A stretch of DNA of 62,998 bases, filler included, from Collodictyon triciliatum (taxonomy: Eukaryota): the NCBI GenBank assembly GCA_043381765.1. It is 7 parts of 7 records of this genome, joined end to end, with 100 filler letters (N's around TTAATTAATTAA, not from the genome) between each part and the next. Parts side by side here need not be neighbours in the genome. Positions count along the whole stretch, not along the records: positions 29,236 to 38,871 come from JBHJMP010002934.1; 6 more parts are not named here. One strand, written 5' to 3'. Both the position numbers and the translations under genes were made by a program. Shown here piece by piece: positions 14,593 through 49,074 of the stretch; position 1 is the first letter of the stretch, and the number at the start of each line of letters is the position of its first letter. The notes beneath the pieces were generated by a model. It worked only from the letters and a program-made list of their open reading frames with translations. It was not told the origin of the DNA and did not search any database.

Positions 14593-16149
14593 ACCTGGAG
14601 TATGTGTCTTGATTGTGTGATGGTCCCATCGACTCCTCCACCAATCTCCCTCTCTCCACCAATCACCAGCCCACTGTTTTGTTCTCTCCCCAACCAACCC
14701 AAACCCCATTTCATCCCATAAAAGAAATCATAAACACTCGCGAACCACGTCCAGCAACTGCGATTCTGCCGACAGGGTCTCCCTGTTGACATGCAGTTGT
14801 ATCACTCCATGATTGTGTGCACAACAGGTACTTTTTTTTTGCAGGAACATAGCCATCCACGCCCGGTGTCAACGCATAATAACAAAGCACTATATTTTCC
14901 ACATATAATACATTTATGTGGTTAGTCCAGAATATTCAATAACATAGACCTAAACTGGTGATTTCAATAGAATGTTAATTCCAAGTATGCAATATTTAAT
15001 TAAAAATTCATTTTATTTATCCATATATGAGTTGTTATCTGCACAGTTCTCCACCAATGCCCAAAGCGAAAGCAGCCCAACCAAACACGCACAATAAAGA
15101 TGATTCATCTGATTCCGCCTCTTACTTGTCCCTTGTTTCTATCCAGTAATCACAAAGCCTCTCCCATCCCTGCCCACAGCCAGCGCCAGCCGAGCCTCTT
15201 CCCCAGCGTAAGTCCGCAGCCGCAAAGGATAACCCGCACGACTTTCATTAAAGCAACAACAAAAAAATTAAAAACAAAAACAACAAAAAAANNNNNNNNN
15301 NNNNNNNNNNNNNNNNNNNNNNNNNNNNNNNNNNNNNNNNNNNNNNNNNNNNNNNNNNNNNNNNNNNNNNNNNNNNNNNNNNNNNNNNNNNNNNNNNNNN
15401 NNNNNNNNNNNNNNNNNNNNNNNNNNNNNNNNNNNNNNNNNNNNNNNNNNNNNNNNNNNNNNNNNNNNNNNNNNNNNNNNNNNNNNNNNNNNNNNNNNNN
15501 NNNNNNNNNNNNNNNNNNNNNNNNNNNNNNNNNNNNNNNNNNNNNNNNNNNNNNNNNNNNNNNNNNNNNNNNNNNNNNNNNNNNNNNNNNNNNNNNNNNN
15601 NNNNNNNNNNNNNNNNNNNNNNNNNNNNNNNNNNNNNNNNNNNNNNNNNNNNNNNNNNNNNNNNNNNNNNNNNNNNNNNNNNNNNNNNNNNNNNNNNNNN
15701 NNNNNNNNNNNNNNNNNNNNNNNNNNNNNNNNNNNNNNNNNNNNNNNNNNNNNNNNNNNNNNNNNNNNNNNNNNNNNNNNNNNNNNNNNNNNNNNNNNNN
15801 NNNNNNNNNNNNNNNNNNNNNNNNNNNNNNNNNNNNNNNNNNNNNNNNNNNNNNNNNNNNNNNNNNNNNNNNNNNNNNNNNNNNNNNNNNNNNNNNNNNN
15901 NNNNNNNNNNNNNNNNNNNNNNNNNNNNNNNNNNNNNNNNNNNNNNNNNNNNNNNNNNNNNNNNNNNNNNNNNNNNNNNNNAAAAACCTCTAACCTTGCC
16001 TAACTTGAAAGGGACAATAACAAAAGAAAAAAGATTATCCAAAACGGATTCCTGCCCTCGTTCTTTTTCTTTTGATCACCTGTTAGAAAATTTCCAAGAA
16101 TATGTTAGTATTATTTAGATTTACATTACTATTTCCATTAATTCTTAGA

Positions 16150-19394: not shown

Positions 19395-19497
19395 CAANNN
19401 NNNNNNNNNNNNNNNNNNNNNNNNNNNNNNNNNNNNNNNNNTTAATTAATTAANNNNNNNNNNNNNNNNNNNNNNNNNNNNNNNNNNNNNNNNNNNN

Positions 19498-19600: not shown

Positions 19601-19768
19601 TAAGGATTAGTCACCTCGGACTTTAAGCATAAATCACACACCCCAATATCATATATGGTGTTGATGTTGGGAGATATACCGACACCCTTCTCTATGAAAC
19701 CCTGAACCACTCCATACCTCATTGACCGATCTTTCTATTTACCATAGGTATTCCAAAACCCTTGTGAG

Positions 19769-21899
19769 ATGTGGTTGCGGTCGCAGGTATTGAGGTCGCA
19801 TTCCCTGACTCAGTTGGCAAATACGTTTCACCGGTTTTCATCCACCGCAACATCCATTTTGGCTATTGAGTCATCTTGTGATGATTCGTGTGTTGCCCGC
19901 ATGACACTTGTACCACCATTCAACTTTACACACCAAAGTGCCGGGCAGATGGATGCACATGCTCCGTATGGTGGTGTTGTCCCGCCGATAGCCGCAAGAG
20001 CTCACATGGCGAACATTCCCAATCTTCTAGAGGCAGTGGACAGTAATTGTACCACTTCAGATGTGCAACTGAAAGGTACATTCTGACTCCCAAATTATTA
20101 TAACTTTCATTCGTACGCTTCCTCTTTTATATTCCCTTCCTGCGACGTTCCTTTATTTTTAATTTATTTTTGGTTTGTTTAATCATCCTTTTGAAACATG
20201 TAATTTGACAAAAAAATGAATTGAAAAAAGCATCACATGCAAAGATGTTGCTGTGGCTGTGACTGTGGGCCCTGGCCTATCTCCTTGTCTTCGCGTTGGC
20301 GTCGCCAATGCGCACCGATATGCTCACAGAAAGAACATACCGATTATTCCCGTCCACCATATCGAGGCACACATGCTTGTTGCTCGCCATCCACAAGTAT
20401 CACTTATCACACCAGCCTTTCCGTTCTTAGCACTCGTTCTCACAGGAGGACATACCCAGTTGGTTCTTGTTCAAGATGTTGGCAAGTATCGTCTCTTAGG
20501 TGAAACACTGGACGATGCAATTGGTGAAGCGTTTGATAAGGTGGCTAGAATACTGGGTCTCTCCCACCCAACCGCTTATGGTGCCGCGCTGGAGTTCGAA
20601 GCATCAAAGTATACACATACACAGTTGTTGCAAGGTCATGAGTCATCAGATAAGCACACACTGATTCAGTTTCCAGTGCCGATGAGACATTTGAAAAATT
20701 GTGATTTCTCCTTCGCTGGGTTGAAAACAGCAGTTCGGTATCAGATAAACTCTATATTGAAAAAAAGCTGTGTGGATAGGTTACCAGAGCAGTATGTCCC
20801 AGAAATTGCACATGCATTTCAAGTAGTTACGCAATTCTTTTTTTTTTTTTTTTTTAAAAAAAAACAAACTATTTCGCAATAGTATCTCCTCAGCCTGTTG
20901 AGAATATTTTCTATATTTTTTGATTTCTTTGATTAAAAGTGTGACTCAAAAGTCGTAGGCGCTATACCTTTTAATTATACCTTACTTCTTACAATCCATC
21001 TTGTGGTACAAAATTAAGCCCCCGAAGACTGTACTTTTTTTCTCGTTCCATTCCTAAAGTTTTGTACCCTAGAAAACTGTAACAACTCACCTTATTGAGA
21101 GAACGCGAAGAGCGATTGAATGGTCCAAAAAACTAGAGCCATCTATCAAGCACGTCGTAAGAAAGATATGTACATAGAATATAGAGTACATTTATGTATT
21201 TGAACACTTTCTTCCGCATAAATTTGTTTTAGATTGGTCTCAATTCACAATCACTTACCTGCCCATCTCCTTCTAGGTTGTATGCGGGGGAGTTGCCTCC
21301 AACAAATACATCCGTGGTCAGCTTGTAAATACCTTCGCGCAGTTGGAGGTGGATGCGGTTTTTCCAGATCCGAAATTTTGTACGGATAACGCACTTATGA
21401 TTGCCTGGGCTGCATATGAAAAAATCATCCACCACCAGCGACAGAGTTCATCTACATCGTTCCCGAAGTCATTAGGGGAGGCAACTAAGGACCTAGCTAT
21501 TCCCAACGTTTTCAAAAACGATAGCGGTACTTCTTCCCATTAAACTATAGGATGATGTGGTGCTGGATATACAAGTTCACGTCCAAGATAGCCGTTTTTG
21601 AAGACTGTTATCCTGTCGTCAGCTTTGGGTGGGTACGCTTTTACTCAAGCGTGATTTATTTCATAGAGTCCATCGACGAATCTTCCTTAAGAAAACTGGT
21701 TCAGGTCACCGCAAGGTGGCCTCTCTCTGAATCGATGAGCGAAGAAGAGGCGAAGGAGCTGAATCGCAAAGAGCCTGTAGATGAAACTCCTAAAACCACC
21801 CTTACCCCAACCCCAGCCGCCTTGCCTTCCTCTTCTGAGGACAAACTACGCCTGCTTGATAGATTCAAGGATTTGATAAAAAACATCCTCTTTCAGTAG
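19769..21899 (+). CDS. OSGEPL1: Mitochondrial tRNA N6-adenosine threonylcarbamoyltransferase (Qri7/TsaD type)
   Basis: Arg/Ser-rich presequence; ILAIESSCDDS, YGGVVP, VTVGPGL, HHIEAH, LTGGHTQL, GETLDDAIGEAFDKVAR, FSFAGLKT, GGVASN, CTDNALMIAW. Confidence 0.95.
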
Positions 21900-25409: not shown

Positions 25410-28237
25410 GATGCAATCTGATATTCGAAATGAACACAATTTTGTCCCGTGACGCCTAGATTTTAAAGCAGCTTATCTCTGCCATCCTGCGCCTTTGTAG
25501 TCTTTAACTTTTATGTCTCATGATTATTATTTTTTGAATCGAACAAAGGAAAAAAATATCTTAATCTCATTTCTAACATAAGCTTGTCATCACTATTGAT
25601 CGATGTTTCCAATTTTTATCCTTTTTTCCCACCAATCTCATTAAAAAAAAGAAAAAATAAATTGAGGACACCTAATATGGAGTTTTCCTCTTGGTAACAA
25701 GTTCAATAAACCGAAGCAACCACCCCACGCGCTGTACAGTTTCACTCTAGATGAATGGTGATTCATTTTTTTTTTTTTTTAGAGCGATAGAAAATAAGAT
25801 ATCGAATTGCATAAGGACCAACCCATCAAGCTAGGGATATAAAAGTGAGCTGCACCCATGCGTTACAAAATATCGCACAGTCGCACTTTATTCATATAAC
25901 AAAGGTGGCACATGGAGAAACCACTACCCATGCCCGTATATGTTTATGCTACTTTTATTTAAAGGCGGATCTTTCGGCATCAAGACAAAAAGCATGGCAG
26001 GAGTTTGGATGATTAAGATACCGTCATTTCCCTTTGAATGAATAAAGGAAAAAAAAAAGCTTCTATCATCTCCAAAATATATTGCCATACCTTTTGGACG
26101 GTAAACCGCCATTGAAGCTGGTCGCGCACATGCAGGACAGGTCATACAAAGGGCAATAAGATTCGCTATGCGTCCTCTCTTCTCTCTCTTCTTTTATCCT
26201 CTTTTCTTTTTTCCTTAATCAATTTTAGCATACCTATCCTTAAACTACAATTGAGATCTGGAAAACCAGACGTTTTATAGAAAGTCCCCTTTTTCATACT
26301 ATTATTTTATTTTTATTTTTATAAAAAGGACACGCTTCTATAAAATTCCTCGATTGCCGATAAACTCTCTTCAGTAGCTGGAAATACTTGGATAAGGTGT
26401 GAAAGATGAAACTCCCTAAAAGAATAATCGTACGACATTGAATTATTCTATATATCAAAACAATTAAATGTAATTGTGAGATGCGTAAATTCAAGAATTA
26501 AATGGTGGATTGCATTACAAAACTAACTGTGATGTAAACAACGCCCCATCGCATAGTTAGGTACTCTTCCACATAATAGAAAAAAAAGTAGACTTTAGTT
26601 ATCGTAGAAACATTGCAAATCAATCCAACGTATGAAGAAAATGAGTATTGCAGATCGATTTGTGCTAGATTTTTGAAGCAAAGAGACCGTATCTATTCAC
26701 TACAAAAGGGACCAGTGTTAAAAGCGGCAGACATGTTTGCTATCGAGAAAATAGAACTTTCATGAACTAGAATTTCAAAGTGGAGGGAATTCTGAAGGTT
26801 TTTGTGCGATGGCTACGATAGAGAATCTTATGTCTTTAGAAAAAAGTGAAGAATATGGGTAATATAATGTAAAATCAACACACAAACACAGCTACATCGT
26901 TCACGGAAGCAATTTATCCAGAGGTAAAGGACGTTCTATGAGTTCTGATCTATATTTATTTTATCCTGTTTACTTGAGTCGGATATACATATTTAGTGGT
27001 TTGTAGGCGATGATAGGAAAATTAATCTTGGTTTATATAGACGAGCTGGGTATATGGGCCAATCTTTTCGACACGAAAAAAAAAAGAAGCAATTTTCATT
27101 CCAGTCACAATGTCTTATACTGGATTAAGCCATACGGACAGTATTTTTCTTTGATGTTCCAAATTATAAAAAGGCATCACAATTTTCAGATGTCTTAAAG
27201 TATGACTGTTTCAAGAAAATTCATAAGAAACCAAAAAAAAAAGCTTTGGCATTGACTCTACCGCAAAAAGGCTCTGAAAGACAAATATTAGCTTTTGGTG
27301 TGATGAACTTGAACGAGGTATTCATGGAAAATGAGAATCAAAAAATTAGATAAAAAGCTCTTCAAAATGAGTATGGACCTATTATTCTAAAACATTCCGA
27401 TTAATATTTTTTCAAGATTAAAATATGCTTCACCCCATTATGATTTCGAATAATTAAGAGACCCTTTTGAAGGGTACGAGAAGATTTGACTCTTCTCCGT
27501 CGTTTACAAATGAAATAAATTAATAACGTTGTTAAAAAACAACACTTGACATGTGTTTAAGTTTACAGATAGTAAAATCTATGATTATTACCTGTAAAGA
27601 CGGTATTGGAATTATTAATATATGCTCTAAGAATTCTCCCATTTTTGAGGGGTTTGTATGATAAGCATGAATATAGTCAGACAACAAATCTGAAACTTGA
27701 GTCCTGAAAAAAATATCTGAATTCTGCGATAAAATCTCCTCAGAACTCTCAGGATAATGTGTTTTCTGACAGATATATACTTAATATTAACTATACATCG
27801 ACACTATTTTCAGATTTAGCAGCACAAAAGACAAGATTGATTCCATATACCCAGCGAAAAATTAGATATAAAACGAATCGAAATCGCTTCAGTCAAGAAA
27901 ATAACACACAGCAGAAGAGCAACTAAGACAAATAGAATTGTATCATTCAAACATAGTCTTGAAGGCTTAGAGCAAACATTAGTATTTAAGGCCATGCAAA
28001 TAGGATGCCATCCAAACAATGTCTAATTGTTGGCCATTCTACCCTCAGTCATCGCAATCTGTGGAAGCACAGACACACCCATACTACGCTGGAATACCCA
28101 AAGGACGTATGAACACATAAGCTCCAAATTATACTCTACCACCGAAAACATATGGGCCATGTGTGCATAAACTTCCTACTGTTATTTTGGTATCTTCTCA
28201 ATGCATATCTGTGCGGAAATCAGTATTTTCCTTTACT

Positions 28238-29135
28238 TTCTTTTCTTTTCTTTTCTTTTCTTTTCTTTTCTTTTCTTTTCTTTTCTTTTCTTTTCTTTTC
28301 TTTTCTTTTCTTTTCTTTTCATTTCATTTCATTTCATTTCATTTCTTTTCATTTCTTTTCTTTTCCTTTCCTTTCATTTCCTTTCTTTTCTTTCATTTTC
28401 TTTTCATTTCTTTTCATTTCTTTTCATTTCTTTTCATTTCTTTTCATTTCTTTTCATTTCATTTCATTTTATTTCTTTTAATTTCTTTTCTTTTAATTTC
28501 ATTTATTTTCTTTTCATTTCATTTCTTTTAATTTCTTTTAATTTCTTTTCATTTCTTTTCATTTATTTTATATTTTGCTCTGTTATTTTCCTTTATTTTC
28601 TATATCTTTTCTTATCTTTTCATTTCATTTTCATTTCATTTTCATTTCTTTTCTTTTCTTTTCATTTTCCTTTCATTTTCATTTCTTTTCATTTCCTTTC
28701 TTTTCCTTTCTTTTCTTTTAATTTCATTTCATTTTCATTTCATTTTCATTTCATTTTCATTTCATTTTCATTTCATTTTCATTTTCATTTCTTTTTCTTT
28801 CATTTCCTTTCTTTTCATTTCATTTCATTTCTTTTCTTTTCTTTTCTTTTTTTCCTTTCCTTTCCTTTCCTTTCTTTTCTTTTCTTTTCATTTCATTTCA
28901 TTTTCATTTTTTTCATTTCTTTTCATTTCTTTTTATTTTCATTTCTTTTCGTTTCATTTCATTTTCATTTCTTTTCATTTCTTTTCATTTTCATTTCTTT
29001 TCATTTTCATTTATTTTCATTTTCATTTCTTTTCATTTTCATTTCTTTTCATTTCTTTTCATTTCTTTTCATTTCTTTTCATTTCTTTTCATTTCTTTTC
29101 ATTTCTTTTCATTTCTTTTCATTTCATTTTCATTT
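28238..29135. repeat. Long degenerate (TTTTC/TTTCA)n pentanucleotide tract
   Basis: Direct reading. The F/S-rich ORFs here are artefacts of the repeat. Confidence 0.95.
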
Positions 29136-29235
29136 NNNNNNNNNNNNNNNNNNNNNNNNNNNNNNNNNNNNNNNNNNNNTTAATTAATTAANNNNNNNNN
29201 NNNNNNNNNNNNNNNNNNNNNNNNNNNNNNNNNNN

Positions 29236-29775
29236 CAAACACACACAAACCTTCTAGACAAACACACAAAACTTGTCAACAAACACACAAACTTATATAT
29301 TTCCCTTTATTTGATTCAAAGTGCACACAAACGTCATCAACAAACACACACAAACCTTATAGACAAACACACAAAACTTGTCAACAAACACACACAAACC
29401 TTCTAGACAAACACACAAAACTTGTCAACAAACACACAAACTTATATATTTCCCTTTATTTGATTCAAAGTGCACACAAACGTTGTAAACAACACACACA
29501 AACATTTTCAACAAATGCACACAAACCCTGTCAACAAACACACAAACGTCATCAACAAACACACATTAACCTTATTTATTTCCCTTTATTTGATTCAAAG
29601 TGCACACAAACGTCATCAACAAACACACACAAACCTTATAGACAAACACACAAAACTTGTCAACAAACACACAAACCTTATATATTTCCCTTTATTCGAT
29701 TCAAAGTGCACACAAACGTTGTAAACAACACACACAAACATTTTCAACAAATGCACACAAACCTTATCAACAAAC
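29236..29775. repeat. Composite AC-rich minisatellite with a recurring core TTTCCCTTTATTYGATTCAAAGTGCACACAAACGT
   Basis: The core occurs four times (about 29300, 29449, 29579, 29685), interleaved with CAAACACACAAA modules. Confidence 0.9.
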
Positions 29776-31475
29776 ACATCATCAACAGAAGAGGGATGTA
29801 AGATTTTAACTACGCCATGAAATAAACAAAACCTGTTCATTTCACTTTTGACTATTTATTTGATAAGGTAAAATGTTAATAAAAATAATATTAAACAATC
29901 ATTTACTGCCTCATACCTGCAGTTAAGCATAACAATCCCCGCTAACTGGAACTAAAATAACCGAAGCCAAAATGAAAACTGCTGCAGACAAACTTCAAAA
30001 TTGCACAGCCTCCGCTGCACATAGAGTGACAGAAAAGCTATGCCTACTACAGAAGGAAAACATATGCCTCGCACAGTTCCCAAGTCAGTTCTACTTTTAG
30101 CCTCCTACGTGATTGCAGTTCTCATGTGGAAAATACCCTGTGATGCTGTGCGATGTTTGTCCACGTCAACCACATTTCTAACACCATAGCCTAAAAACCC
30201 CAGCAAGACAACAATCCAGTCTGCTTTCTTCAAAGCCCACAAGCACATACTCATATTATTGTCCCACATACACCAAATAATAATCAAAGTACACAAGACT
30301 CTGCACATTTGACCTTCCCGACACAACACAGCGCGCTGAGGATGGAGAACCAAACCCGGAATTCTTAAAGAAAACATAGTTCAGCGCTTGAAGATACTCA
30401 GATATTGACTTCGAGGCTGAGTATTCAAAAAATCATAAATGTTCAGCTTTTGTGCCACTCTTCCTTGCTTTTTCAAAAAAAATTTTTAGGGGTTCGGCAC
30501 TTAAGCCTCCAACGATACCTACACCACACCACCATTGTGTCTCTATATCCCACTTGTTACTTGAAGTTACGAATCGCAGCCTCTAAGAAAAGTTATGTAC
30601 CCTTTCTTGCCGTGGCTGCGAATCTAAAGCGCAAAACATGTCATGTGTCTGCCACAAGACACTCCCTCTTCCCAAAGCATTTTGAAGCAATTGTGCGTCG
30701 TTATAGTCTGAGGTGAAGTTTGGGGGTTTGAAATTGAAGGAAAATCAACGAGCAGCTTTTGTTAAGATGCACTGTCACATCCATCATCGCACTGAAGAAA
30801 AATGAAAAAAAACAAAAAAGCCAGGTAACACGACTGTCATAAATCTGTCCACAACTTCTGCAAATAAGCGTGAGTTTGCTGCTTATCACGGTGCGTCTAA
30901 ATTTCAATGCGTCCTGCAAACTAGATGTGGTATTATCACTTATATAATATAAAGGTGATAATACCACACTAGAGGAGGCGAAATCCTAATGTCCCCCACA
31001 ACACGCAGCTCTATGTGCTCAATATTGAGCGGTTGAGAAATCGCTCACATATCTGCGCAGTGTCATAGAACAAGCGGTGCCTGGAATCGTGGCTACTTCA
31101 ATTGATAACGACAAGCCACAATGACAGGTGTCTCGAGACGACAGAAAAAACACGAACATCGCCTCGGTTATAATCCTGCCAACTCTTCATTCAGCTCAAA
31201 AGCGAGCCTCTATCTCGAGCGATGGATAGAAAAAAAAAAGCAACCCGAAAGACTAGAGCGTACTGGGACGCAACCAGGCAAACAAAAAGATGAGAGGCCG
31301 CGTTTATTGCAATCATTCTCTGTCATTCTTTCACCAAGCGACTTTCCGGAGCTAGAAAAGTGTGAACTTTGTCTTGTATCTGATCTCAAGCTATGCGCAC
31401 CAACAAATGCCGGGCATTAAATGCCTGGTAAGATCATTTTCCATCAGAAATTTTTACGACCCTTTGTAAATGGCC

Positions 31476-31680
31476 ATTGAAAAGGCGGGTGTATCATCAT
31501 TTCCCGCCAAAAGTAACGTCCAACTTAACTTTCAATCATAATATTTTTTCCTTTGACTTTCAATCATTATGAAATATTGAAATGGCGGGTGTATCATCAT
31601 TTCCCGCCAAAAGTAACGTCCAACTTAACTTTCAATCATAATATTTTTTTCCTTTGACTTTCAGTCATTATGTGATATTG
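31476..31680. repeat. Tandem duplication of a ~100-bp unit containing a GGCGGG...CCCGCC stem
   Basis: Units at 31476-31575 and 31576-31676 are nearly identical. Confidence 0.92.
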
Positions 31681-32906
31681 TCTCGACCATGTTTTTCTTT
31701 GGACGACAAAACATATAAATGGTCAATAAGACTTGCACATATATTTGGATTGCCAGTGCAAGGGTGAGAATAAAGTATTTCGCTTGGCTCTCATCGCACC
31801 ATGCGTGACCCACGTCTAGTTCAATCAGAGACACGAACCAATGCGTGCACCCACACACTAGTTGAAAATTCACCGTGACTATCCATCATGCCTTATCCAT
31901 GTGCTGAGCCCTCACAATAACCGCAATATGTTCGATATGCTTTCTTATATCATATCAGTCTGTCAAATATCACCATTCGTAAGTCAAGACATTATGTCTC
32001 TTAACATATCTATGTAACCACGAAAGGCACTCACGGACACGCCACAGGAAGCCAAGAATTAGTATTCAAAATCATCGCAATATCATTCATTCATCAATAG
32101 TGTCATGTATTGTATGTTGGCTTTCATAGCGTGGACCTATAATTGACTTGTATGAGTAAAATTTTCATTGCACTAAGTCAGGATCCTTTCATCAACTGGT
32201 CTGGTCATGGCTTTCGTTGATCATTCTATGTAGATGAATGAAACGATCGGGCAGCTTTTCAACTAATTTCTAATGGCCCGCATATAGCACACTCTCGAAA
32301 AAAATTTCTTTATACGTTTTCTTCAGATATATGGAATGCCTAGTTTTAACTTTCTGAGCTTCAGCACATTCTTCCTCTATTAGGTTGAAGGGAGGGAAAG
32401 GTTTCTGTGCTTCGTCATTGACTTTGCAGTTATCATCAAGATTTTATGATAGCCTAAGAAATATATATTCAAGAAGTGTGCTCACCTCATGTTATATCAT
32501 CAACTTATAATGTCGACTGTATCGAAGAGTGCATGTTATTACAATGAAATGAAAGCCAGTTTATTTTAACTTTACGACGAAGATATTTGTATCTAGTGTA
32601 TCAAAATGGTCACAGACTGTCTAAACCCGCCCCCCCCCCCCCATGAAATAATTCTTTAGAGCAATAAATATCTTTGATATGTTACTTTATATTTACATGC
32701 GAATCCTGAATGATGGTATAATTTTAGAATGTAACTTTTGTATGCTTTAGTGAGAAATTGTATCAACAGTTTTTTGAAATTATGATTTTTACCTATATTA
32801 CTTTCAAGGAGATTCGAAATGATGATATTAAATTCAACATAAGTAGGATATTGTTAGCTACTTTTAATCCTATTTTTTAGACTGCAATAGTGAGCAAGGA
32901 AACGAA

Positions 32907-35742
32907 ATGATGAACAAGTATACAGGATTGGCTATCATCGTAACAGGTTAGCAATACAAACGGCATCATATAGCATTGTTTCCATTATATATCGTGTTGC
33001 AATATGATGACCTATGACATCAGCATTCATGAAGCAAATTTTCAAACTGTAGCATTGGTACTTGAGAGCCAAGTAATCAATGTCAAAGGACAAGATGATT
33101 TCGTGACTCGAACACTAGTTGGCCCTGGTTCTGTGTGCAGCGTTGCTGTCACTCCTGATGGTTCGAAAATTGTCTCTGGAGGTGGAGATTATTATATTCC
33201 AGATTGGACAGTAAAAATATGGAATCTTTCTGACGGTTCTTTGATTCGCACCCTGACTGGTCATACTGGTTCTGTGTGCAGCGTTGCTCTCACTCCTGAC
33301 GGTTCACAAGTTGTTTCTGGAAGCTATGATAGAACAATCAAAATCTGGAATCTTTCTAATGGAGCTTTGATTCGTACACTGATTGGTCATACTTATTCGG
33401 TTTACAGCGTTGCTGTTACTCCTGATGGCTCAAAAATTGTGTCTGGAGGTTATGATCAAACAATCAAAATCTGGAATCTTTCTGATGGAGCCTTGATTCG
33501 CGTATTGATTGGACATCGTTGGTATGTTTACAGTGTTGCTCTCACTCCTGATGGCTCAAAAATTGTTTCTGGAAGCAGGGATAATACAATCAAAGTTTGG
33601 AATCTTTCTGATGGAGCCTTGATTCGCACATTGACTGGTCATACTAGCAGTGTTGAAAGTGTTGCTGTTACTCCTGATGGCTCAAAAATTGTTTCTGGAA
33701 GCAGTGATTGGACAGTCAAAGTTTGGAATCTTTCTGATGGAACTTTAATTCGCACATTGACTGGTCATACTGATGATGTTTACAGCGTTGGTGTTACTCC
33801 TGATAGCTCAAAAATTGTTTCTGGAAGCAGTGATTGGACAGTCAAAGTTTGGAATCTTTCTGATGGAACTTTAATTCGCACATTGACTGGTCATACTGGT
33901 AATGTTTACAGCATTGGTGTTACTCCTGATAGCTCAAAAATTGTTTCTGGAAGTGATGATAATACAATCAAAATTTGGAATCTTTCTGATGGAACTTTAA
34001 TTCGCACATTGACTGGTCATANNNNNNNNNNNNNNNNNNNNNNNNNNNNNNNNNNNNNNNNNNNNNNNNNNNNNNNNNNNNNNNNNNNNNNNNNNNNNNN
34101 NNNNNNNNNNNNNNNNNNNNNNNNNNNNNNNNNNNNNNNNNNNNNNNNNNNNNNNNNNNNNNNNNNNNNNNNNNNNNNNNNNNNNNNNNNNNNNNNNNNN
34201 NNNNNNNNNNNNNNNNNNNNNNNNNNNNNNNNNNNNNNNNNNNNNNNNNNNNNNNNNNNNNNNNNNNNNNNNNNNNNNNNNNNNNNNNNNNNNNNNNNNN
34301 NNNNNNNNNNNNNNNNNNNNNNNNNNNNNNNNNNNNNNNNNNNNNNNNNNNNNNNNNNNNNNNNNNNNNNNNNNNNNNNNNNNNNNNNNNNNNNNNNNNN
34401 NNNNNNNNNNNNNNNNNNNNNNNNNNNNNNNNNNNNNNNNNNNNNNNNNNNNNNNNNNNNNNNNNNNNNNNNNNNNNNNNNNNNNNNNNNNNNNNNNNNN
34501 NNNNNNNNNNNNNNNNNNNNNNNNNNNNNNNNNNNNNNNNNNNNNNNNNNNNNNNNNNNNNNNNNNNNNNNNNNNNNNNNNNNNNNNNNNNNNNNNNNNN
34601 NNNNNNNNNNNNNNNNNNNNNNNNNNNNNNNNNNNCAGTCTCAGTCTCAGTCTCAGTCTCAGTCTCAGTCTCAGTCTCAGTCTCAATCCCAATCCCCAAC
34701 ACAAGGTCTGCTTCACTTTATATCATGTTAAATTTTACGTATTATTACATACATGAAAGATTGACGCCGAATTTTTGCTTCTATTTGCACTTAGAATTAC
34801 ATGACCCCCTATTTTTTTTCTAGATGGCGAACATTTCATCGATTTTCATATTGACCGCATCTCTGATTCCTATCAAGTCGACCAAGTTATTTTTACAGAT
34901 GAATTGGTATGGTTTATGCTCTCGAAGCAGGATATGTTCCACTTGATTCTCTCAAACGCAGGCGAGGCTCTTGTTGGGCATAGCCCATACCATTAAGACA
35001 AAAGGTGTTCATCAACTCAAATCTTTTTAGGCTGAGGGACTCAACATAACACGGGTTCAGCTTCGTCCCTTCTACCCCGTAACCTTCGATGGCTACATCT
35101 CCCTATCAATAGCCGTACTTGAAAATGTCGGCTCGCCTGAATCCAGCATGGAAATTGTAGACAAGATATTAAACGCTGCAAGAAAGGGAAGCAAGGTACT
35201 ATGTAAATGTGCACTCTCAAACCTTCTTGTTTCTCCTGTTTTGCCGATTTTTGGCTCTTGTAAAACACATTGAACTCTGTCACACTTGCTTGCACTTATC
35301 GACGACTACCTATATGTGTGCATGTTATAGTTGAATCATTTACAGTATTTCGAACAACTATAGAAATATTATCTGCCCTTTAATCATGTGATGTATCGAA
35401 TAGGTGCTCACCGATCTTAAAGTTATGACCGTCGTTTATGAAGAAGATGTTATTGTTGTGGAGGAGAAAGTAAGTGATAATCTGTTCTGTTACGACTCAC
35501 GCAATTCAATTAGACACTGACACGACTCATAATTTCATATCCAGTCATCAGAGCGCAATCTCGACATCTATATCGGCATTGCTGTTGCAGGAGGCGTTTT
35601 GTTTCTGATAATCTGTGTTGCGCTGGTGAAGATGCGCCATAGAGCGAAGTATCTTTGCAACAAACTGTTCCACTACAAAAATATCCACGCGATGAAATCC
35701 AGCGGTGTCCAGCTTGAGTCTATCAATAGAGACACACTATAA
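32907..35742 (+). CDS. Putative type-I membrane protein: signal peptide, at least 7 near-identical WD40 repeats, (QS)n stalk, juxtamembrane domain, TM helix, short tail; spans an N gap
   Basis: Exon 1 (32907-32946) spliced to 33053 gives MMNKYTGLAIIVTALVLESQVINVKG-QDD. 42-aa repeats LIRTLTGH..V.SVAVTPDGSKIVSG..D.TIKIWNLSDG. After the gap, QSQS..PTQ splices in phase to DGEHFIDF.., then IYIGIAVAGGVLFLIICVALV-KMRHR and stop at 35740-35742. Confidence 0.72.
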
Positions 35743-36189
35743 GCGATGTCTGACTGAGTATCGGAATCACCAGCATGCACTATGGCACTTGTACTGAGTG
35801 GCCTACAGAAATAAAAGAAAAAGCAAAAAATAAACAAAAGTGTCACCGACAAATATGAAGTATGTGTATTCTGATCTACTCAGTACCCGCATTTATGCAA
35901 TTAATGAATAGCAATACGACTTTTTATTTCAGAAGCATTTGATATCGGTCAATTGTCGAATCATGATATGCGTTAGATAACACGTGTAAAAACGTGGAAT
36001 TAGATGGTATCTAAGCAGGCCTTCGGTACTTTGTATATCCACCCACACGCGCGGGGGTCTTTTTTTTTGGTTCTATTTCAATATTATTCATACTTATTAT
36101 CATGATTTCGGCTGTTTTCTTATGCTACGTAATAAACAGAGTTTCCAAACTTATTGTGAAGATTATTGTTTACTCTGTTCATCATTTAG

Positions 36190-37153
36190 TTGGATTTTGA
36201 TAATCTCTCATCAAAACTCAAGAACGAACGCTCATTTAACAGTATGCATTCTATGCAGTCCTCGATGGCTATGGCCTACTCCAAATTCTTTCGATACAAA
36301 ATATCGCCGCCAACACCCTACAAAAAGTCAAAACATCAACGATGGGGAGAAACACTGGGCATCACCCACACCCTGCTCACCGCGAGCTGGAGACAAGCAC
36401 GAACCCCGCAAGTCGTTCCAAATCACCGCTCTCTAATGCTTAATATCACCAATAGGGAGCTATGGATAGGCATACGCGCGGCAAAAGCTGGCAAAGTCTC
36501 CTAACAATGCACACTTTGCAGCAACAGTGATGAATCCATCGAGCACACATTTGTGCATGGCCTCTCGCTCAAAACCTGCTCGAAACAGTCAGTGAGACTC
36601 TTCGACTGACACTCAAGACGGCTGCGTTATTGGCCCAATCCAGGCGATATTTGGGCCTCTGCAACAACTGCGTCCAGATGCAAAAACATTCAGGGCAGTG
36701 ACGCGAGGCCATTTGCTATGGACTATGTGGATAGCACGCATATACTCACGCAAATCAAGACTTAACAACCAGCCACCCATTCCTGATAACAGGCTGGATG
36801 ACATCATACAAATCTCTTTCCTCAACAGATTCCTTCGCCACCTGCACGTTCTCTACTACTTCGACCCTGTGAGAAGAGACATGTGGAAAAAGGCTGAGAA
36901 GGAGATTCAACCTCGCCTTGTATCTCTCATGCAAGCACAAGACCCAGGCTACAGGCCAAAGCGCAGGATGCAATTGCTGATTACCGACTACTTCTCCGCC
37001 ACCCGGCCACCAAGTAGCGTCCATGCAAACGATGTCCAGCGAACCAAAGCAAACATCTTCACCATCCTGCACAAAATTGAAAGGAAGAATAAAAATAATC
37101 AAATAGCAATTGAAAGCGTGGGCGCCTTTAACAACTGCCATCGTGTATTATGA
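36190..37153 (+). mobile_element. Decayed 3' fragment of an L1/Tx1-type non-LTR retrotransposon (zf-RVT region)
   Basis: ITNREL..*QCTLCSNSDESIEHTF followed by LLWTMWIAR, interrupted by stops and a frameshift. Confidence 0.65.
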
Positions 37154-38984
37154 AATAGACAATATGACTTTTTGTTTGATGTTCTATGAATGGCACCCAA
37201 GTATGATAGTCAACTCCAAGCTAGCATTTCAATAGGCGTACCTTTTTAAAACCCTTACAAGATACTTTCCACGAGTCTTCATTCACTGTCTCGGGAACGC
37301 CCAGCGTCGCTCAACATTAACGACACAGTCAAGAGTTTGAAATCGGTCTTTGTGTCATTTTTTTCGTACTGAATAGCAAGGAAAGTTAAACGTCGCTGGC
37401 AAAGACAGAAAGCACCTGCCTCTTGAATTTGAAAACGACTCTGTTGCAGTTGATATCTATGTATTATCCACTGCAATCCATGGAATGCGAGAATTCGGCT
37501 CCTCAAGTTATTTTGGAGTCTCAAAAGGGAATGGGATTCAGTTTTGTGAGCTCAGAATATACTGGGCATTTTGCGTACGATAGTCGACAGGTTTTGGCCT
37601 GGCTCACATCCTAATTCTCCATTCAATCGAAGGCTAGAGTTTCGAGTCGCGAATAGAATTATCCCACCAGCATTCAATTCACACAAATTGTAGGAATATT
37701 ACCTAATCATGATAGAAGTGGATTTTCAGGAGAAAATTTTATGGATTTAATGTGTTTGTACCATGTACATCTAGAACTACTGCCGCTGCTGTTTTTAATG
37801 CTGCAGATAATGATGTCGTAGGTACTGTTTTTGCAATTTTTTGTTAGAATTGTTTGTACAAAACCATTTAATGTTAACTTTGCTGCATCACAAAATCCTT
37901 TAAATATTGTCGCTAATTCAGGAATAATTCACTTACCGAGGGACTATGTTACGTGTGTGAAACTGGATGTGGATTCAATCGTGAGTTGTGGATTGGATTA
38001 ATCTCTGCCAATTTTTGACGCAGTTGGAGGAAAGTTGTAGGCTCGGATATTCAGTCGTCAGGCTCAGGCTTAATGAGTTTGACATTAGGGTTTGATGACC
38101 ATCGACCACAGGTTTTAATTACAGTGTTATTGTTGCATCGCTGTACGACGTCGTCCTCGAAATTCAATCCAACCAGCAGACTTACCGCATAGAATAAAAT
38201 CCTCATTTAAGTAATGGAACCGATTATGATATTCTCATTACTTATGACTTGCGTGTTAGTGTTAGAGTGTGTGTGGAAATATGCATCGACCATTTGAAAC
38301 AAAGTTGGTGTTATGAAGGAGAGTAGAGTTCAAGAAAGAAAGACTTGCTGCACGCTGGAGCTTAGTTGGCACAAAAGTGGGGAGGGGGTAGTTTTGCCCT
38401 CTTCATTATATACCACATCTTTACCGATCTTGAAAAGTTTGAAAAGTGGATAAAAAGGAAAATAAGAAAAGAAGGCAATTTTCTGAACCATTTTGACCAA
38501 GGATAATGATATATGGATATTGTAGAGGGGAAGGGACTCATCAACCACTCGCTTTTGGGTAAAATATTATAAAATTGATTTGTTGTATTTGTTTTTACTA
38601 CATACAAAAAAAAAAAATTACAAACGTTTAAGTATTTTCGTGTGAAGACTATATCAGCTATCGCTGCTTATTCTGCCACAATAATGGTTTTGAAACTGAG
38701 TTTAAGGAAGGAGAAGCTGCGGGCTACACAGTAAAATTGGGAGACTGGGGTGAACTGACAATATAGATGAAGAAAATAGGTTATTGGGAAACAAGACATA
38801 TCTACTGCTGTTCAGGCATATGCTTACCACGGACAAACCAGTACAGATTATAAAAAGCCGATGCAAGCGCGNNNNNNNNNNNNNNNNNNNNNNNNNNNNN
38901 NNNNNNNNNNNNNNNTTAATTAATTAANNNNNNNNNNNNNNNNNNNNNNNNNNNNNNNNNNNNNNNNNNNNTTTTTTTTTTTTT

Positions 38985-44730: not shown

Positions 44731-45252
44731 ATGCCGGAAATTCCAGAAAATATTAAAAAAGAATTGCCCAAAGATTTCGATGAAGTTTGGGAGGTTGTTG
44801 AAATCGGAGACATTCAAAAGAATGATTATATTTCCTATTTCCCCAAGCCCCGCAAATATCAATCGCGTGACTCTGAAACAAAGCCCCAGCTAGTGAAAGG
44901 CGGATATGTTACATTCACCCCAGACGAAGAGAAAAAAGAAATTCGCGGCACAAAAGAAAATGTAATTGGTTTGCGCAGTTTCAAATCAAAGTGGTCTATT
45001 AGCGAATCAGATGTTTATTTCTTTTGCAAGTCAAAGAAAGACTCGAAAGAGATTTTGAAAAAAGGAATTGCGAAAGCCAATGAGACAAAGACCGAGGTAC
45101 GCAAACGCAAGGCCGAAATACTCAAGGACGAAATCAAGGAGGCGGAAAAGATGAGCGTCAATAAAGAGGCCATTGAGGAGGCTGTAAAGGCCGCCGCTGA
45201 GACTGATTCTCCAATTAAAAAAAAAAGAGGCAGACCAAAGAAGAAGGTCTAA
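44731..45252 (+). CDS. Hypothetical Lys/Glu-rich protein with a C-terminal AT-hook (element ORF)
   Basis: Intact 173-aa ORF ending KKKRGRPKKKV. Its stop overlaps the integrase stop at 45249-45252. Confidence 0.8.
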   Translation: MPEIPENIKKELPKDFDEVWEVVEIGDIQKNDYISYFPKPRKYQSRDSETKPQLVKGGYVTFTPDEEKKEIRGTKENVIGLRSFKSKWSISESDVYFFCKSKKDSKEILKKGIAKANETKTEVRKRKAEILKDEIKEAEKMSVNKEAIEEAVKAAAETDSPIKKKRGRPKKKV

Positions 45253-46439
45253 GTTTTATTTCTTCTGGCAGCGCGTTCTGCGCGAGAAGTAGCTTGAGCT
45301 GTCTTTGTCGCCTCATTGAACTTGAATAAATCTTTCTCCTCTAAACCAGAGGCCCCTTTCATTTTTCGAGGCTTTGCTTCTTTTAAAAATTCATCCAAGT
45401 CGTCTTGCTCTTCAAATTCTTTGACGAGTTGTTTTTTGGGTTTATGTGTTTTGCCTTTGGTGACTGTGTCGTCGATCAGAAGCAAGTCAGAGCGCTTGAA
45501 ATTTGTCTTTGCGATTTTCGCATTGGTTGATTCGACTTTGACATAAGGCACAGCCCATTCGCTGGTTGGTTTGCTTTCTTTGATGACTGTATATATTTCA
45601 TTACTCCAACGGGGCAAGTACCCCTTTGAAGTTTTCAGTTTTTGTTTTATATTCACAGGCAGGTCAGTCTTCTCAAGAAGTATTCTGACTTTGTCTCCAG
45701 GTTGGAATGGTTTGTCCTTGCCGGCATTCTGATTCTTTTTGCCTGCATATTTTTTTTGGTTCTCGATAATTTGCTCCTGGTACTTTGGCAAAACCGCAAC
45801 ATCAGGCACAACCTTTGTTGTTTCATTTTTGACAAGATTAATAGAGTCTGTGAATTCTCTGAGATGGGGGATTGGGTCGTCGCCAGTCTTTTGCAGATAG
45901 CCGTAGAGTGCGCGCTTGATTGTGCCATTGGCTCTTTCGACAAAGGCATTGGTCGTGGGATTACCTGGAGAACTTTTCACGCTTTTAATATTATTACTTT
46001 CTAAAAGTTTTGGAACTTCACCTTCAAATTCTTTTCCATTGTCTGACTGAATGGTCGTGACCAATTTATATTCTTTAATAAACTTTTCTAATTGCTGGGA
46101 TACTTCTTTGCTGGAATTTGCCTTCAGTGGATAGGCCCACAGCTTTCGCGTGAATACATCAACACAAGTCAGAATATATTTCGCGTCTTCTGATTCCAGG
46201 TTTCCTACATCAATCGTGTCTATCTGAATGTACCCTGGTTTGAATCGCATCATGGTTGCTTGTTTGCGTTCTGACTTTCTCGCTTGGAGAGTTTGGTAGT
46301 CTGGTTGCTGTTTGAGAAATTCTTCGACAGTCTTTTTTTTAATTCCAAATTCTTTGACCAGCGCCCAAAGTCCGGCAACTGAATTTGTGTGCTTGGGTGC
46401 ATTATAATACTTTTCCAATATTTTCATTTCGTCAGTCAT
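45249..46439 (-). CDS. Retroviral-like (rve) DDE integrase, Polinton/Maverick c-integrase type
   Basis: QIDTID, YILTCVDVFTR, IQSDNGKEF and AFVERANGTIK (D,D-35-E); C-terminal FQPGDKVRI..KGYLPRWSNEIYTV; no chromodomain visible. Confidence 0.93.
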   Translation of the reverse strand: MTDEMKILEKYYNAPKHTNSVAGLWALVKEFGIKKKTVEEFLKQQPDYQTLQARKSERKQATMMRFKPGYIQIDTIDVGNLESEDAKYILTCVDVFTRKLWAYPLKANSSKEVSQQLEKFIKEYKLVTTIQSDNGKEFEGEVPKLLESNNIKSVKSSPGNPTTNAFVERANGTIKRALYGYLQKTGDDPIPHLREFTDSINLVKNETTKVVPDVAVLPKYQEQIIENQKKYAGKKNQNAGKDKPFQPGDKVRILLEKTDLPVNIKQKLKTSKGYLPRWSNEIYTVIKESKPTSEWAVPYVKVESTNAKIAKTNFKRSDLLLIDDTVTKGKTHKPKKQLVKEFEEQDDLDEFLKEAKPRKMKGASGLEEKDLFKFNEATKTAQATSRAERAARRNKT

Positions 46440-46476
46440 AATTTAATTTATAAAATATTATTTATTTAAAAACGCG

Positions 46477-48313: not shown

Positions 48314-49074
48314 CTGCGCAAGTTCTATTGGCTTGTTTTTCGAGGGTTATTTTCAATAGTCTGATACTCGTGTTTGCTTAGTTTTCTTTGCTTTTGCTGT
48401 TTTTTCTTCTTTTTCTTCTTTTTTTTCTTTTTTTCATTTTTCATTTTTCATTATTTGTAATTTTTTGTAATTTTTTGTCCATTTTTTTAGTTGTCTCATC
48501 GTTTTATTTTATTTTTCGTACTTTTCTTCATTCTTGGTTCTTTTTTGTTTAAGTTTTCGTTTTCCATCCTTTTTTTTTTTTTTTTTTTTTTCTTTCTTTN
48601 NNNNNNNNNNNNNNNNNNNNNNNNNNNNNNNNNNNNNNNNNNNTTAATTAATTAANNNNNNNNNNNNNNNNNNNNNNNNNNNNNNNNNNNNNNNNNNNNG
48701 AAGAAAAGAAGAAAAGAAGAAAAGAAGAAAAGAAGAAAAGAAGAAAAGAAGAAAAGAAGAAAAGAAGAAAAGAAGAAAAGAAGAAAAGAAGAAAAGAAAA
48801 ACCAAAACAAAAACATGAGAAGCGGAATGAAGTTTTGCTGTAGCTGACTGAAAAAATTAAATAAGGAAATACATAATCCATTTCAATTGGCGCTCACATT
48901 TATAAACATATTTGATTCGAAGAAATGTTTTAATTTAGTATTAAAATTTGTTACCAATAAACCTTTTTTTTAAATGATATGATATGTAATTGAATTCCAA
49001 AGTTTCACTTTTAATTTCATGCTTTACCACAAACAATATCCGCACGCTCACCAAACAACATGTTATGCACAAAG

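What the first reader, a model, noticed from the sequence alone, without database searches (positions are those of the whole stretch)
32907..35742. Candidate cell-surface receptor with an extracellular, high-identity WD40 propeller
Splice phases are consistent with signal peptide, WD40 x7 or more, (QS)n stalk, a ~100-aa juxtamembrane (possibly SEA-like) domain, TM helix with basic stop-transfer, and a short tail. WD40 domains are almost always intracellular. Repeats with this internal identity are best known from cytosolic fungal HNWD NLRs (HET-E/D/R). Every repeat carries an N-L-S glycosylation sequon. This may be an undescribed variable non-self, prey or pathogen recognition receptor (inference).
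Basis: partly seen in the sequence, partly recalled or inferred. Interest (0 to 1): 0.85.

Follow-up and report, generated by a model that had tools for sequence, protein, structure and literature searches.

The report
Membrane protein with outward-facing WD40 propeller
A freshwater microbial eukaryote expresses a gene that appears to put a normally intracellular WD40 propeller, made of near-identical repeats that differ mainly at their binding positions, on the outer side of a membrane; an assembly gap still leaves open whether it is all one gene.

Summary
Seven GT-AG exons on the + strand (32907-35742) encode, in order:
- a signal-peptide-like N-terminus;
- seven complete 42-residue WD40 repeats plus the start of an eighth (Pfam PF00400, E 1.2e-77);
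- a 614-N scaffold gap;
- a (QS)10 stretch;
- about 105 residues of no known family;
- a strong TM helix with charge flanks of -3 and +5;
- a 37-residue basic tail.

Spliced contigs from one public run confirm four of the five visible introns. These include the join of the signal-peptide exon to the WD40 exon, which removes the internal Met at 33004.

Repeats are 64-88% identical. Variation sits at five positions, three of which are the published top-face hotspots (R1-2, R1, D-1). All seven repeats carry an N-L-S sequon, against 2.3% of the repeats in the 120 best relatives.

Still unproven:
- continuity across the gap;
- the QS exon;
- the SEA-like idea;
- any function.

WD40 arrays outside the cytoplasm are already described in bacteria, so I rate this a new variant of a known kind. 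Confidence in the single type I protein is about 0.6. Interest is 0.6.

The parts
32879..32906 (+). 5' untranslated leader seen in a cDNA contig
   Evidence: X1 record 1 starts at 32879. There is an in-frame stop upstream and no ATG before 32907.
32907..32946 (+). Exon 1: start codon and the first 13 residues plus one base of the signal-peptide-like segment
   Evidence: The splice to 33053 is confirmed by an X1 contig with 0 differences in this exon.
32947..33052 (+). Intron 1 (106 nt, GT..AG); contains the in-frame ATG at 33004
   Evidence: Joint 32944/33051 with the cut +2, GT..AG.
33053..34021 (+). Exon 2: end of the signal peptide, a short linker, seven WD40 units (33121-34014) and the first two codons of an eighth; runs open into the gap
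   Evidence: Pfam, repeat table, TRF, AlphaFold2 model with 28 strands, Foldseek against 7bie and 2ymu.
34022..34635 (.). Scaffold gap of 614 N inside the repeat array
   Evidence: not bridged by any contig laid.
34636..34705 (+). Putative exon 3: (CAGTCT)8.3 read as (QS)10 then S-P-T-Q, with a phase-1 GT donor
   Evidence: There is no RNA evidence because the read tool skips this repeat.
34706..34823 (+). Putative intron 3 (118 nt, GT..AG, long pyrimidine tract); unverified
   Evidence: A DNA contig of X2 covers 34706-34910 unspliced with 0 differences.
34824..34906 (+). Exon 4: start of the membrane-proximal domain. Its frame is open from 34805 with no ATG, so coding must come from upstream.
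   Evidence: the donor at 34906 is confirmed by an X1 contig.
35031..35195 (+). Exon 5: 55 residues of the membrane-proximal domain, with an N-I-T sequon
   Evidence: Both junctions are confirmed. No family or homologue was found.
35404..35469 (+). Exon 6: last 22 residues of the membrane-proximal domain
   Evidence: Both junctions are confirmed.
35545..35742 (+). Exon 7: TM helix (35566-35628), 37-residue basic tail (35629-35739) with a Y-K-N-I motif, and TAA stop
   Evidence: junction confirmed.
35743..35849 (+). 3' untranslated region with AATAAA at 35810 and 35829
   Evidence: The X1 contig ends at 35849.

Best explanation
This is one gene for a single-pass type I membrane glycoprotein of a freshwater microbial eukaryote.

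How it would be made. A cleavable N-terminal signal peptide takes the chain into the ER. The TM helix, followed by basic residues, stops transfer. As a result, one (possibly two) canonical seven-bladed WD40 propellers, a Gln/Ser stalk and a membrane-proximal domain of about 105 residues face the outside or the lumen of endocytic organelles. Only 37 residues stay in the cytosol.

How it would work. The propeller is built from recently duplicated or homogenised 42-residue repeats. Their differences are concentrated on the top-face contact positions, and each blade carries an N-glycosylation sequon at the C-D turn on the opposite face. It most likely acts as a binding or recognition module for an external ligand. 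It would be coupled to uptake or to a partner protein, not to an enzyme of its own.

What is shown: the sequence anatomy, the fold model, expression and four splice junctions.

What is inferred: signal-peptide function, continuity across the gap, glycosylation, surface location and ligand binding.
For: 1. All junctions are GT-AG and the phases match.

2. Spliced contigs of run X1 join 32946/33053, 34906/35031, 35195/35404 and 35469/35545. The first of these contigs starts 28 nt before the ATG at 32907.

3. The N-terminus has a lysine, a 13-residue hydrophobic core (KD 2.25) and polar residues with small-residue cleavage candidates.

4. The TM helix scores KD 2.93. Its flank charges are -3 on the N side and +5 on the C side, which by the positive-inside rule puts the N side outside.

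5. The C-terminal part has no start of its own. The exon 4 frame is closed at 34802 and has no ATG before the cDNA's 5' end. A transcript beginning at 34853 would meet three out-of-frame ATGs with 7-11-codon ORFs before the first in-frame ATG at 35148. The N-terminal part has a signal but no stop or anchor, so the two halves complement each other.

6. WD40 identity is firm:
- PF00400, E 1.2e-77.
- Best AlphaFold2 model pLDDT 87.3, pTM 0.85, 28 strands.
- Foldseek TM 0.87 and rmsd 0.9-1.1 A to 7bie_A and 2ymu_A.
- phmmer to 2ymu_A, E 2.7e-194.

7. Across the 42 repeat positions, 23 are invariant and five (4, 5, 7, 23, 25) take 3-5 residue types. Positions 5, 7 and 23 are R1-2, R1 and D-1 as defined in PMC3419727 (passages). 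Crude dN/dS is 1.55 at these five codons and 0.38 at the other 37. The five were picked after seeing the variation, so this is descriptive only.

8. The sequon W-N-x-S/T is in 7 of 7 repeats here. In the 120 best relatives it is in 45 of 1932 repeats, and in at most 5 of 23 in any one protein. Sequon density is 2.08 per 100 residues here, against a median of 0.25 and a maximum of 1.43.
Against: - No contig bridges the 614-N gap or the 34705/34824 junction. The QS exon has no RNA support.
- The only cDNA 5' end seen for the C-terminal part lies inside exon 4, at 34853.
- The scaffold is a 9.6-kb short-read piece. Other WD40 transcripts with similar repeats exist in X1, shown by loose ends and by 25 of 38 laid contigs below 99% likeness. 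Scaffolding through the repeats could therefore be wrong.
- Signal peptide and topology rest on simple rules. No dedicated predictor was available.
- X1 is only guessed to be RNA by its record. Its RNA nature rests on the four spliced joints and on an adaptor-like loose end that I recognise from memory.
- Only 1 of 5 AlphaFold2 models was confident; the others scored 40-59.
- The propeller part has only two cysteines. It lacks the per-blade disulfides that CRINKLY4 authors regard as an adaptation to the outside.
- The seven sequons are not independent, because the repeats share recent ancestry and identical codons.
- The C-terminal module has no homologue to corroborate it.
Confidence: 0.6

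Rival explanations
1. There are two genes. A secreted, soluble signal-peptide-plus-WD40 protein ends inside the gap. A separate membrane protein, with its own first exon hidden in the gap, supplies the QS stretch, the membrane-proximal domain and the TM helix.
For: Nothing bridges the gap. The X1 contig depths differ, 10 for the exon 1-2 contig and 27 for the C-terminal contig. The gap size is only an estimate, and repeat arrays of this kind are collapsed in short-read assemblies (PMC12222747 abstract).
Against: An estimated 614 nt would have to hold the rest of repeat 8, a stop, a 3' UTR, a promoter, a 5' UTR and a signal-peptide exon. Both halves lie on the same strand. Each lacks exactly what the other has: the first has a signal but no stop or anchor, the second has an anchor but no start. 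Even under this rival the WD40 propeller would still enter the secretory pathway.
Confidence: 0.2
2. The WD40 is cytosolic and held on an organelle or plasma membrane by the C-terminal helix. The N-terminal hydrophobic stretch is not a working signal peptide, and the protein is inserted after translation with its short tail in the lumen.
For: Eukaryotic WD40 domains are overwhelmingly cytosolic or nuclear (established knowledge). The TM helix lies only 37 residues from the C-terminus. The ectodomain is poor in cysteines.
Against: The flank charges of -3 and +5 favour the tail in the cytosol. The N-terminus has the n/h/c layout of a signal peptide and is the true 5' coding end in the cDNA contig. 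A sequon on every blade would be pointless in the cytosol and is rare in relatives. A 37-residue tail is long for a tail anchor (established knowledge, recalled).
Confidence: 0.1
3. The join is a scaffolding chimera. Read pairs falling in near-identical WD40 repeats of paralogues linked the wrong N-terminal contig to this C-terminal contig.
For: The window is a concatenation of ~9.6-kb scaffolds joined by N44-TTAATTAATTAA-N44 spacers, so the assembly is fragmented. Several related WD40 sequences are present in X1.
Against: The right-hand contig still needs an upstream coding exon on the same strand. Read pairs placed a WD40 array within insert distance of it. Strand and orientation agree.
Confidence: 0.08

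Closest known systems
Highly repetitive (HR) WD40 proteins of cyanobacteria and other bacteria; solved example 2YMU, its designed derivatives (WRAP-T), and PkwA (5YZV)
   Same: Canonical 42-residue G-H ... W-N repeats. Best sequence match in the PDB is 2ymu_A, E 2.7e-194. Model TM-score 0.87 at 49% identity. Mean internal identity is about 0.75, my mean of the matrix, which is above the 0.7 cut-off used for 'HR' in PMC5587647. Hotspot positions are diverse in an otherwise conserved repeat (PMC5587647 passages).
   Different: This one is a spliced eukaryotic gene, with a signal peptide directly before the repeats and a C-terminal membrane anchor. It has an N-L-S sequon on every blade, whereas sequons occur in 2.3% of relatives' repeats.
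Bacterial membrane-spanning Ser/Thr kinases with periplasmic WD40 arrays (Planctomycetota, Myxobacteria; PMC11032199)
   Same: Single-pass membrane protein with a tandem canonical WD40 array predicted on the non-cytoplasmic side, presumed to be a sensor (passages). Six of the 120 best relatives here carry PF00069 plus a TM-like segment before the WD40 part.
   Different: The orientation is reversed: in the bacterial proteins the kinase is N-terminal and inside, and the WD40 is C-terminal. Here the cytosolic part is only 37 residues with no kinase. The host is a eukaryote and the route is ER/Golgi with glycosylation sequons.
Fungal HNWD NLRs (HET-E, HET-D, HET-R)
   Same: WD40 repeats with high internal conservation, a few hypervariable sites on the interaction surface, and collapse in short-read assemblies (PMC12222747 abstract and passages).
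   Different: HNWD proteins are cytosolic HET-NACHT-WD40 proteins. Here there is no NACHT or HET domain; the WD40 array starts about 10-17 residues after the predicted signal peptide cleavage sites (after residue 19 or 26). Repeat identity is 64-88%, against over 80% to 100% reported for HNWD.
CRINKLY4 receptor kinases of plants (ectodomain described as a WD40 domain)
   Same: Type I membrane receptor whose ectodomain is a seven-bladed propeller carrying N-glycans (bioRxiv 10.1101/2020.08.10.245050, passages).
   Different: The closest structural relatives of the CRINKLY4 propeller are BLIP-II and UVR8. It has one disulfide per blade and a buried N-terminal strand, and is followed by a cysteine-rich domain and a cytoplasmic kinase. 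The present propeller is a Pfam PF00400 G-beta-type WD40 with two cysteines and no kinase.
   Same: Multivalent extracellular propeller made of similar blades and used for recognition of microbes. This is the nearest functional analogy for the proposed mechanism.
   Different: They belong to different repeat families, not WD40. No sequence relation was tested.

Membership tests
WD40 repeat (Pfam PF00400, G-beta type) | Profile match above the curated cut-off in several consecutive repeats | tested here: met
   253.5 bits against a cut-off of 27, E 1.2e-77, 7 stretches.
WD40 repeat (Pfam PF00400, G-beta type) | Seven four-stranded blades closing into a propeller | tested here: met
   AlphaFold2 best model pLDDT 87.3, pTM 0.85, 28 strands, though only 1 of 5 models was confident. 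Foldseek to 7bie_A and 2ymu_A gives TM 0.87 and rmsd 0.9-1.1 A.
WD40 repeat (Pfam PF00400, G-beta type) | Residues of the D-H-S/T-W hydrogen-bond tetrad | tested here: met
   H2, S20, D24 and W30 are invariant in 6 of 6 full units. The tetrad is defined in PMC3419727 and PMC5587647. Geometry was not examined.
Highly repetitive WD40 class (Hu et al. 2017) | Internal repeat identity of at least 0.7 | tested here: met
   The mean of the 15 pairwise identities is about 0.75. The paper's own procedure was not reproduced.
Fungal HNWD NLR (HET-E/D/R) | NACHT NTPase and an N-terminal effector (HET) domain before the WD40 array; cytosolic | tested here: not met
   Only WD40-type families match exon 2. 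The array begins about 17 residues after the hydrophobic N-terminus. There is no room for a NACHT domain upstream, because the cDNA contig starts 28 nt before the ATG.
Fungal HNWD NLR (HET-E/D/R) | Repeats highly alike, with variation confined to a few surface positions | tested here: met
   Three of the five variable positions are R1-2, R1 and D-1.
Type I membrane protein | N-terminal signal peptide | tested here: inconclusive
   The n/h/c layout is present by hydropathy and the small-residue rule. No trained predictor was available.
Type I membrane protein | Single TM helix with the positive side towards the C-terminus | tested here: met
   KD 2.93 over 19 residues; flank charges -3 and +5.
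Type I membrane protein | Signal peptide and anchor on one polypeptide | not testable with these tools
   Gap 34022-34635 is not bridged.
   Exons 4-7 scanned one by one gave no SEA hit at E <= 1. The spliced domain could not be handed to the profile or fold tools, so the domain as a whole was not tested.
CRINKLY4-type ectodomain | One conserved disulfide per blade, a cysteine-rich domain and a cytoplasmic kinase | tested here: not met
   Two cysteines in 336 residues of the N part, a 37-residue tail and no kinase.
Bacterial STK-TM-WD40 sensors | Cytoplasmic Pkinase domain on the same chain | tested here: not met
   No Pkinase match in any exon. The kinase fragment at 16087-16359 lies on another scaffold.

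The most novel reading that the evidence does not exclude
This may be one member of a diversifying family of surface receptors in a protist. Such a family would use a glycosylated, highly repetitive WD40 propeller as its variable recognition module. Repeat shuffling and changes at the top-face hotspots would generate specificities for prey, pathogens or non-self cells. It would be an extracellular counterpart of the cytosolic HNWD receptors of fungi. It may have been built from a bacterial type of WD40 array already used outside the cytoplasm.
Probability: 0.2. Interest if true: 0.85.

Novelty: new variant of a known kind. Interest (0 to 1): 0.6.

Why it matters
Canonical WD40 propellers are the textbook intracellular scaffold of eukaryotes. 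A eukaryotic protein that displays one outside the cell would be new in several ways. Its blades are kept alike, its contact residues vary, and each blade appears prepared for glycosylation. It would add WD40 to the short list of repeat folds used for variable extracellular recognition (LRR, Ig and others). It would also give a tractable handle on how free-living protists tell prey, pathogens or kin apart.

A practical point follows too. Such genes sit exactly where short-read assemblies break, so they are likely to be under-counted.

Tried and rejected
Homologue and family searches for the C-terminal module
The C-terminal exons had no hit except a sub-threshold HIG_1_N match on the TM exon.
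- Exon 5 against the 5.8-billion-protein set, looking for longer proteins: none at E <= 0.01.
- Exon 5 against 1.84 billion representatives: one hit, P0241, E 1.6e-11. P0241 is a protein with nine Big_5 Ig-like repeats and a Por secretion tail. It matches only 25-29 residues at 22-29 bits per repeat, and the score is summed over eight near-identical repeats. Big_5 itself does not hit exon 5. I treat this as a weak lead, not homology.
- ESM Atlas with exon 5: no usable hit.
- JGI metagenome contigs: exon 5 peptides gave 531 pattern matches but none was confirmed. An exact 30-mer of exon 4 gave 0 matches. The gap could therefore not be closed.

Context
- Paralogues in the window: tblastn of both halves found only the gene itself at E < 0.5.
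- Own genome: not held.
- Taxon: the TsaD-like exon on another scaffold is at most 54% identical to anything, with green algae on top. The lineage is unresolved.
- Neighbours on the gene's own scaffold (29236-38871): 56 ORFs of 45 residues or more had no Pfam hit above cut-off.

Read data
- Runs X2, X3 and X6 hold small shares, mostly short WD40-like pieces at 90-99% likeness. Two DNA contigs match uniquely with 0 differences: X2 at 34706-34910 and X3 at 35358-35508. I draw no habitat or abundance conclusion beyond 'freshwater and lake records hold pieces of it'.
- Differences in X1 contigs fall in the variable codons at 9 of 20 changed letters in units 2-7. Those contigs may come from other repeats, paralogues or k-mer chimeras, so this is not counted as population evidence.

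Literature
- Searches for eukaryotic canonical WD40 ectodomains returned only CRINKLY4 and one review using the phrase 'extracellular WD40'. This covers only the held library and those phrases. Supplements were not seen.
Full report
**What is in the sequence**

Reading 32500-36300 and translating it gives a seven-exon model on the + strand:
- 32907-32946
- 33053-34021
- a run of 614 N (34022-34635)
- 34636-34705
- 34824-34906
- 35031-35195
- 35404-35469
- 35545-35742, ending in TAA

All five visible introns start with GT and end with AG, are 75-208 nt long, and keep the frame.

**N-terminal half**

Exon 1 plus the first codons of exon 2 give a lysine at position 4 and a 13-residue hydrophobic core (Kyte-Doolittle 2.25). 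A polar stretch follows, with small-residue cleavage candidates after residues 14, 19 and 26. The repeat array then starts almost at once.

Evidence that this is a canonical WD40 array:
- Pfam PF00400 matches at E 1.2e-77 (253.5 bits, cut-off 27) in seven stretches.
- Tandem Repeats Finder reports period 126, 6.4 copies, 86% matches at 33214-34021.
- There are seven complete units. The first has a four-residue insertion. The eighth opens with G-H at the edge of the gap.
- A single-sequence AlphaFold2 run gave one confident model out of five (pLDDT 87.3, pTM 0.85; the others 40-59), with 28 strands, which is seven four-stranded blades.
- Foldseek places this model on 7bie_A and 2ymu_A (TM 0.87, rmsd 0.9-1.1 A, 49% identity) and on PkwA, 5yzv.
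- By sequence, 2ymu_A is the best solved relative, E 2.7e-194.

**Repeat variation**

The six 42-residue units are 64-88% identical in protein and 78-92% in DNA. My mean of that matrix is about 0.75, above the 0.7 used to define 'highly repetitive' WD40 proteins in PMC5587647 (passages).

Of the 42 positions, 23 are invariant and 14 take two residue types. Five positions (4, 5, 7, 23, 25, counting from G-H) take three to five types.

PMC3419727 gives a sequence rule for the top-face hotspots: (V/L/I)-R1-R2-(V/L/I), and the residue before the tetrad Asp (passages). Under that rule, positions 7, 5 and 23 are R1, R1-2 and D-1, the residues that generally make top-face contacts. Positions 4 and 25 are their neighbours.

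A crude Nei-Gojobori count gives dN/dS 1.55 at the five codons and 0.38 at the other 37. I chose the five after seeing the variation, so this is a description, not a test.

The same pattern, repeats kept alike with a few hypervariable surface sites, is what defines the fungal HNWD repeats (PMC12222747 abstract and passages). That paper also reports that such arrays cannot be rebuilt from Illumina assemblies, which fits the gap sitting inside this array.

**Sequons**

All seven units carry N-L-S directly after the repeat's conserved tryptophan, and exon 5 has one N-I-T.

In the 120 best relatives, 45 of 1932 repeats (2.3%) have a sequon at that place, and no protein has more than 5 of 23. Overall sequon density here is 2.08 per 100 residues, against a median of 0.25 and a maximum of 1.43.

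The seven copies use identical codons and share ancestry, so they count as one event that has been kept, not as seven.

From the general WD40 topology (established knowledge), this turn lies on the face opposite the hotspots. Glycans there would leave the binding face free. This is inference.

**C-terminal half**

After the gap come:
- (CAGTCT)8.3, read as (QS)10;
- about 105 residues spread over exons 4-6;
- a 21-residue helix (KD 2.93), with an acidic N-flank (-3) and a basic C-flank (+5);
- a 37-residue tail that contains Y-K-N-I, the form of a tyrosine sorting motif. That reading of the motif is inference from established knowledge.

The exon 4 frame is closed at 34802 and holds no ATG, so coding must enter from an upstream exon.

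**Expression and splicing**

One public run (X1, 'organism A', whose record is only guessed to be RNA) holds a third of the sampled words. Nine further runs from freshwater or lake records hold small shares.

Laid on 32700-35900, X1 gives two key contigs:
- A 454-nt contig starts at 32879 and joins 32946 to 33053. It has no difference in exon 1.
- A 617-nt contig joins 34906/35031, 35195/35404 and 35469/35545, and ends at 35849 after AATAAA.

All four joints are GT..AG. Four of the five visible introns are therefore confirmed.

The second contig carries a 23-letter loose end at 34853 that I recognise from memory as the end of a template-switch oligo. This marks a cDNA 5' end inside exon 4. A true transcript start there would have to pass three short out-of-frame ORFs before an in-frame ATG at 35148, which would give only 103 residues. 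I therefore read it as a truncated cDNA.

Nothing covers the QS exon, because the tool skips that repeat. Nothing covers the 34705/34824 junction or the gap.

**Setting**

The paired 44-N blocks in the window flank TTAATTAATTAA, a six-frame stop spacer. The pieces between them measure 9648, 9638, 9636, 9628 and 9627 bp. The window is therefore a chain of separate scaffolds sorted by size.

Only 29236-38871 is physically linked to this gene. On that piece I found satellite repeats and no ORF with a Pfam match above cut-off (56 ORFs).

The Miro-like, kinase, TsaD, integrase, arrestin, myosin and FKBP fragments lie on other scaffolds. They show only that the assembly is from a eukaryote. The TsaD-like exon is at most 54% identical to any protein found, with green algae on top. 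The lineage stays open.

**Relatives**

The WD40 exon finds 6251 proteins at E <= 1e-20 among 8000 scored candidates. The 120 listed are bacterial, fungal and Reticulomyxa proteins, mostly STAND NTPase or kinase fusions, at 28-58% identity. The list is ordered by total bits, so a shorter near-identical protein could have been hidden.

A crude hydropathy scan finds a TM-like segment in 42 of these 120. Eleven have one within the first 70 residues. Six carry a kinase domain with a helix before the WD40 part.

Periplasmic WD40 arrays on membrane kinases are described for Planctomycetota (PMC11032199, abstract and passages). The statement that WD40 is almost always intracellular therefore needs the qualifier 'in eukaryotes'.

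In the held library, the phrase 'extracellular WD40' occurs in only two papers. One is the CRINKLY4 structure paper. The closest structural relatives of that propeller are BLIP-II and UVR8, and it is disulfide-stapled, so it is a different kind of propeller.

The C-terminal module has no relative that I accept.

**Interpretation**

The most economical reading is one type I membrane glycoprotein that shows one or two WD40 propellers to the outside or to the lumen of endocytic compartments. I put this at 0.6. The rivals:
- Two genes meeting in the gap (0.2). The propeller would still be secreted.
- A cytosolic, C-terminally anchored WD40 (0.1).
- A scaffolding chimera between paralogues (0.08).

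A ligand-binding, recognition or uptake role is inferred from three things: hotspot-focused variation, the short tail with a sorting-type motif, and analogy to propeller lectins (recalled). No experiment or comparison here tests it.

**Verdict**

This is a new variant of known kinds: highly repetitive WD40 arrays, and bacterial extracytoplasmic WD40 sensors.

It is interesting (0.6) because a canonical WD40 ectodomain on a eukaryotic type I protein, glycan-ready and varying at its contact residues, does not appear in the literature I could search. Three things hold the score down: the unbridged gap, the lack of a trained topology prediction, and the absence of any relative of the anchoring module.

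Noticed in passing
window 9650-9749, 19398-19497, 29136-29235, 38872-38971, 48600-48699, 58327-58426: Each site is N44-TTAATTAATTAA-N44, a six-frame stop spacer. The pieces between them shrink steadily (9648, 9638, 9636, 9628, 9627 bp). The window is therefore a chain of separate scaffolds sorted by length, not contiguous genome, and gene neighbourhood across spacers is meaningless.
   Followed up: yes
window 28226-29135 and 29241-29778: A (TTTTC)n satellite of about 179 copies ends one scaffold. Arrays of 21-, 23-, 44-, 64- and 108-nt CA-rich tandem repeats begin the next. Scaffold ends generally sit in simple repeats.
   Followed up: partly
window 31476-31680: A 100-nt unit repeated twice at 95% identity, 1.2 kb upstream of the gene. 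Its function is unknown.
   Followed up: no
window 19748-20879 (+): Two exons of a bacterial-type TsaD/Qri7-like tRNA threonylcarbamoyl transferase (PF00814, E 8.5e-41). The best relatives are at only 54% identity, with green algae first. The organism has no close relative in the protein set.
   Followed up: partly
window 45252-46442 (-): A 397-residue open frame with an integrase core domain (rve, E 3e-13), probably a retroelement or DNA transposon remnant on another scaffold.
   Followed up: no
window 49379-56110 (+): Myosin head exons followed by a 397-residue open frame with an IQ motif and a proline-rich, extensin-like stretch.
   Followed up: no
window 33239-33673, loose ends of X1 contigs: Several X1 contigs share 40-130 letters with the repeats and then run on into different WD40-like sequence. 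The organism therefore expresses other WD40 genes with similar repeats. Whether these carry a signal peptide or an anchor is unknown.
   Followed up: partly
P0241 (1556 aa) against window 35031-35195: The only database hit of exon 5 is a protein with nine Big_5 Ig-like repeats and a Por secretion tail. It shares a 25-29-residue strand motif in each repeat. This is possibly chance, possibly a hint that the membrane-proximal domain starts like an Ig-like sandwich.
   Followed up: partly
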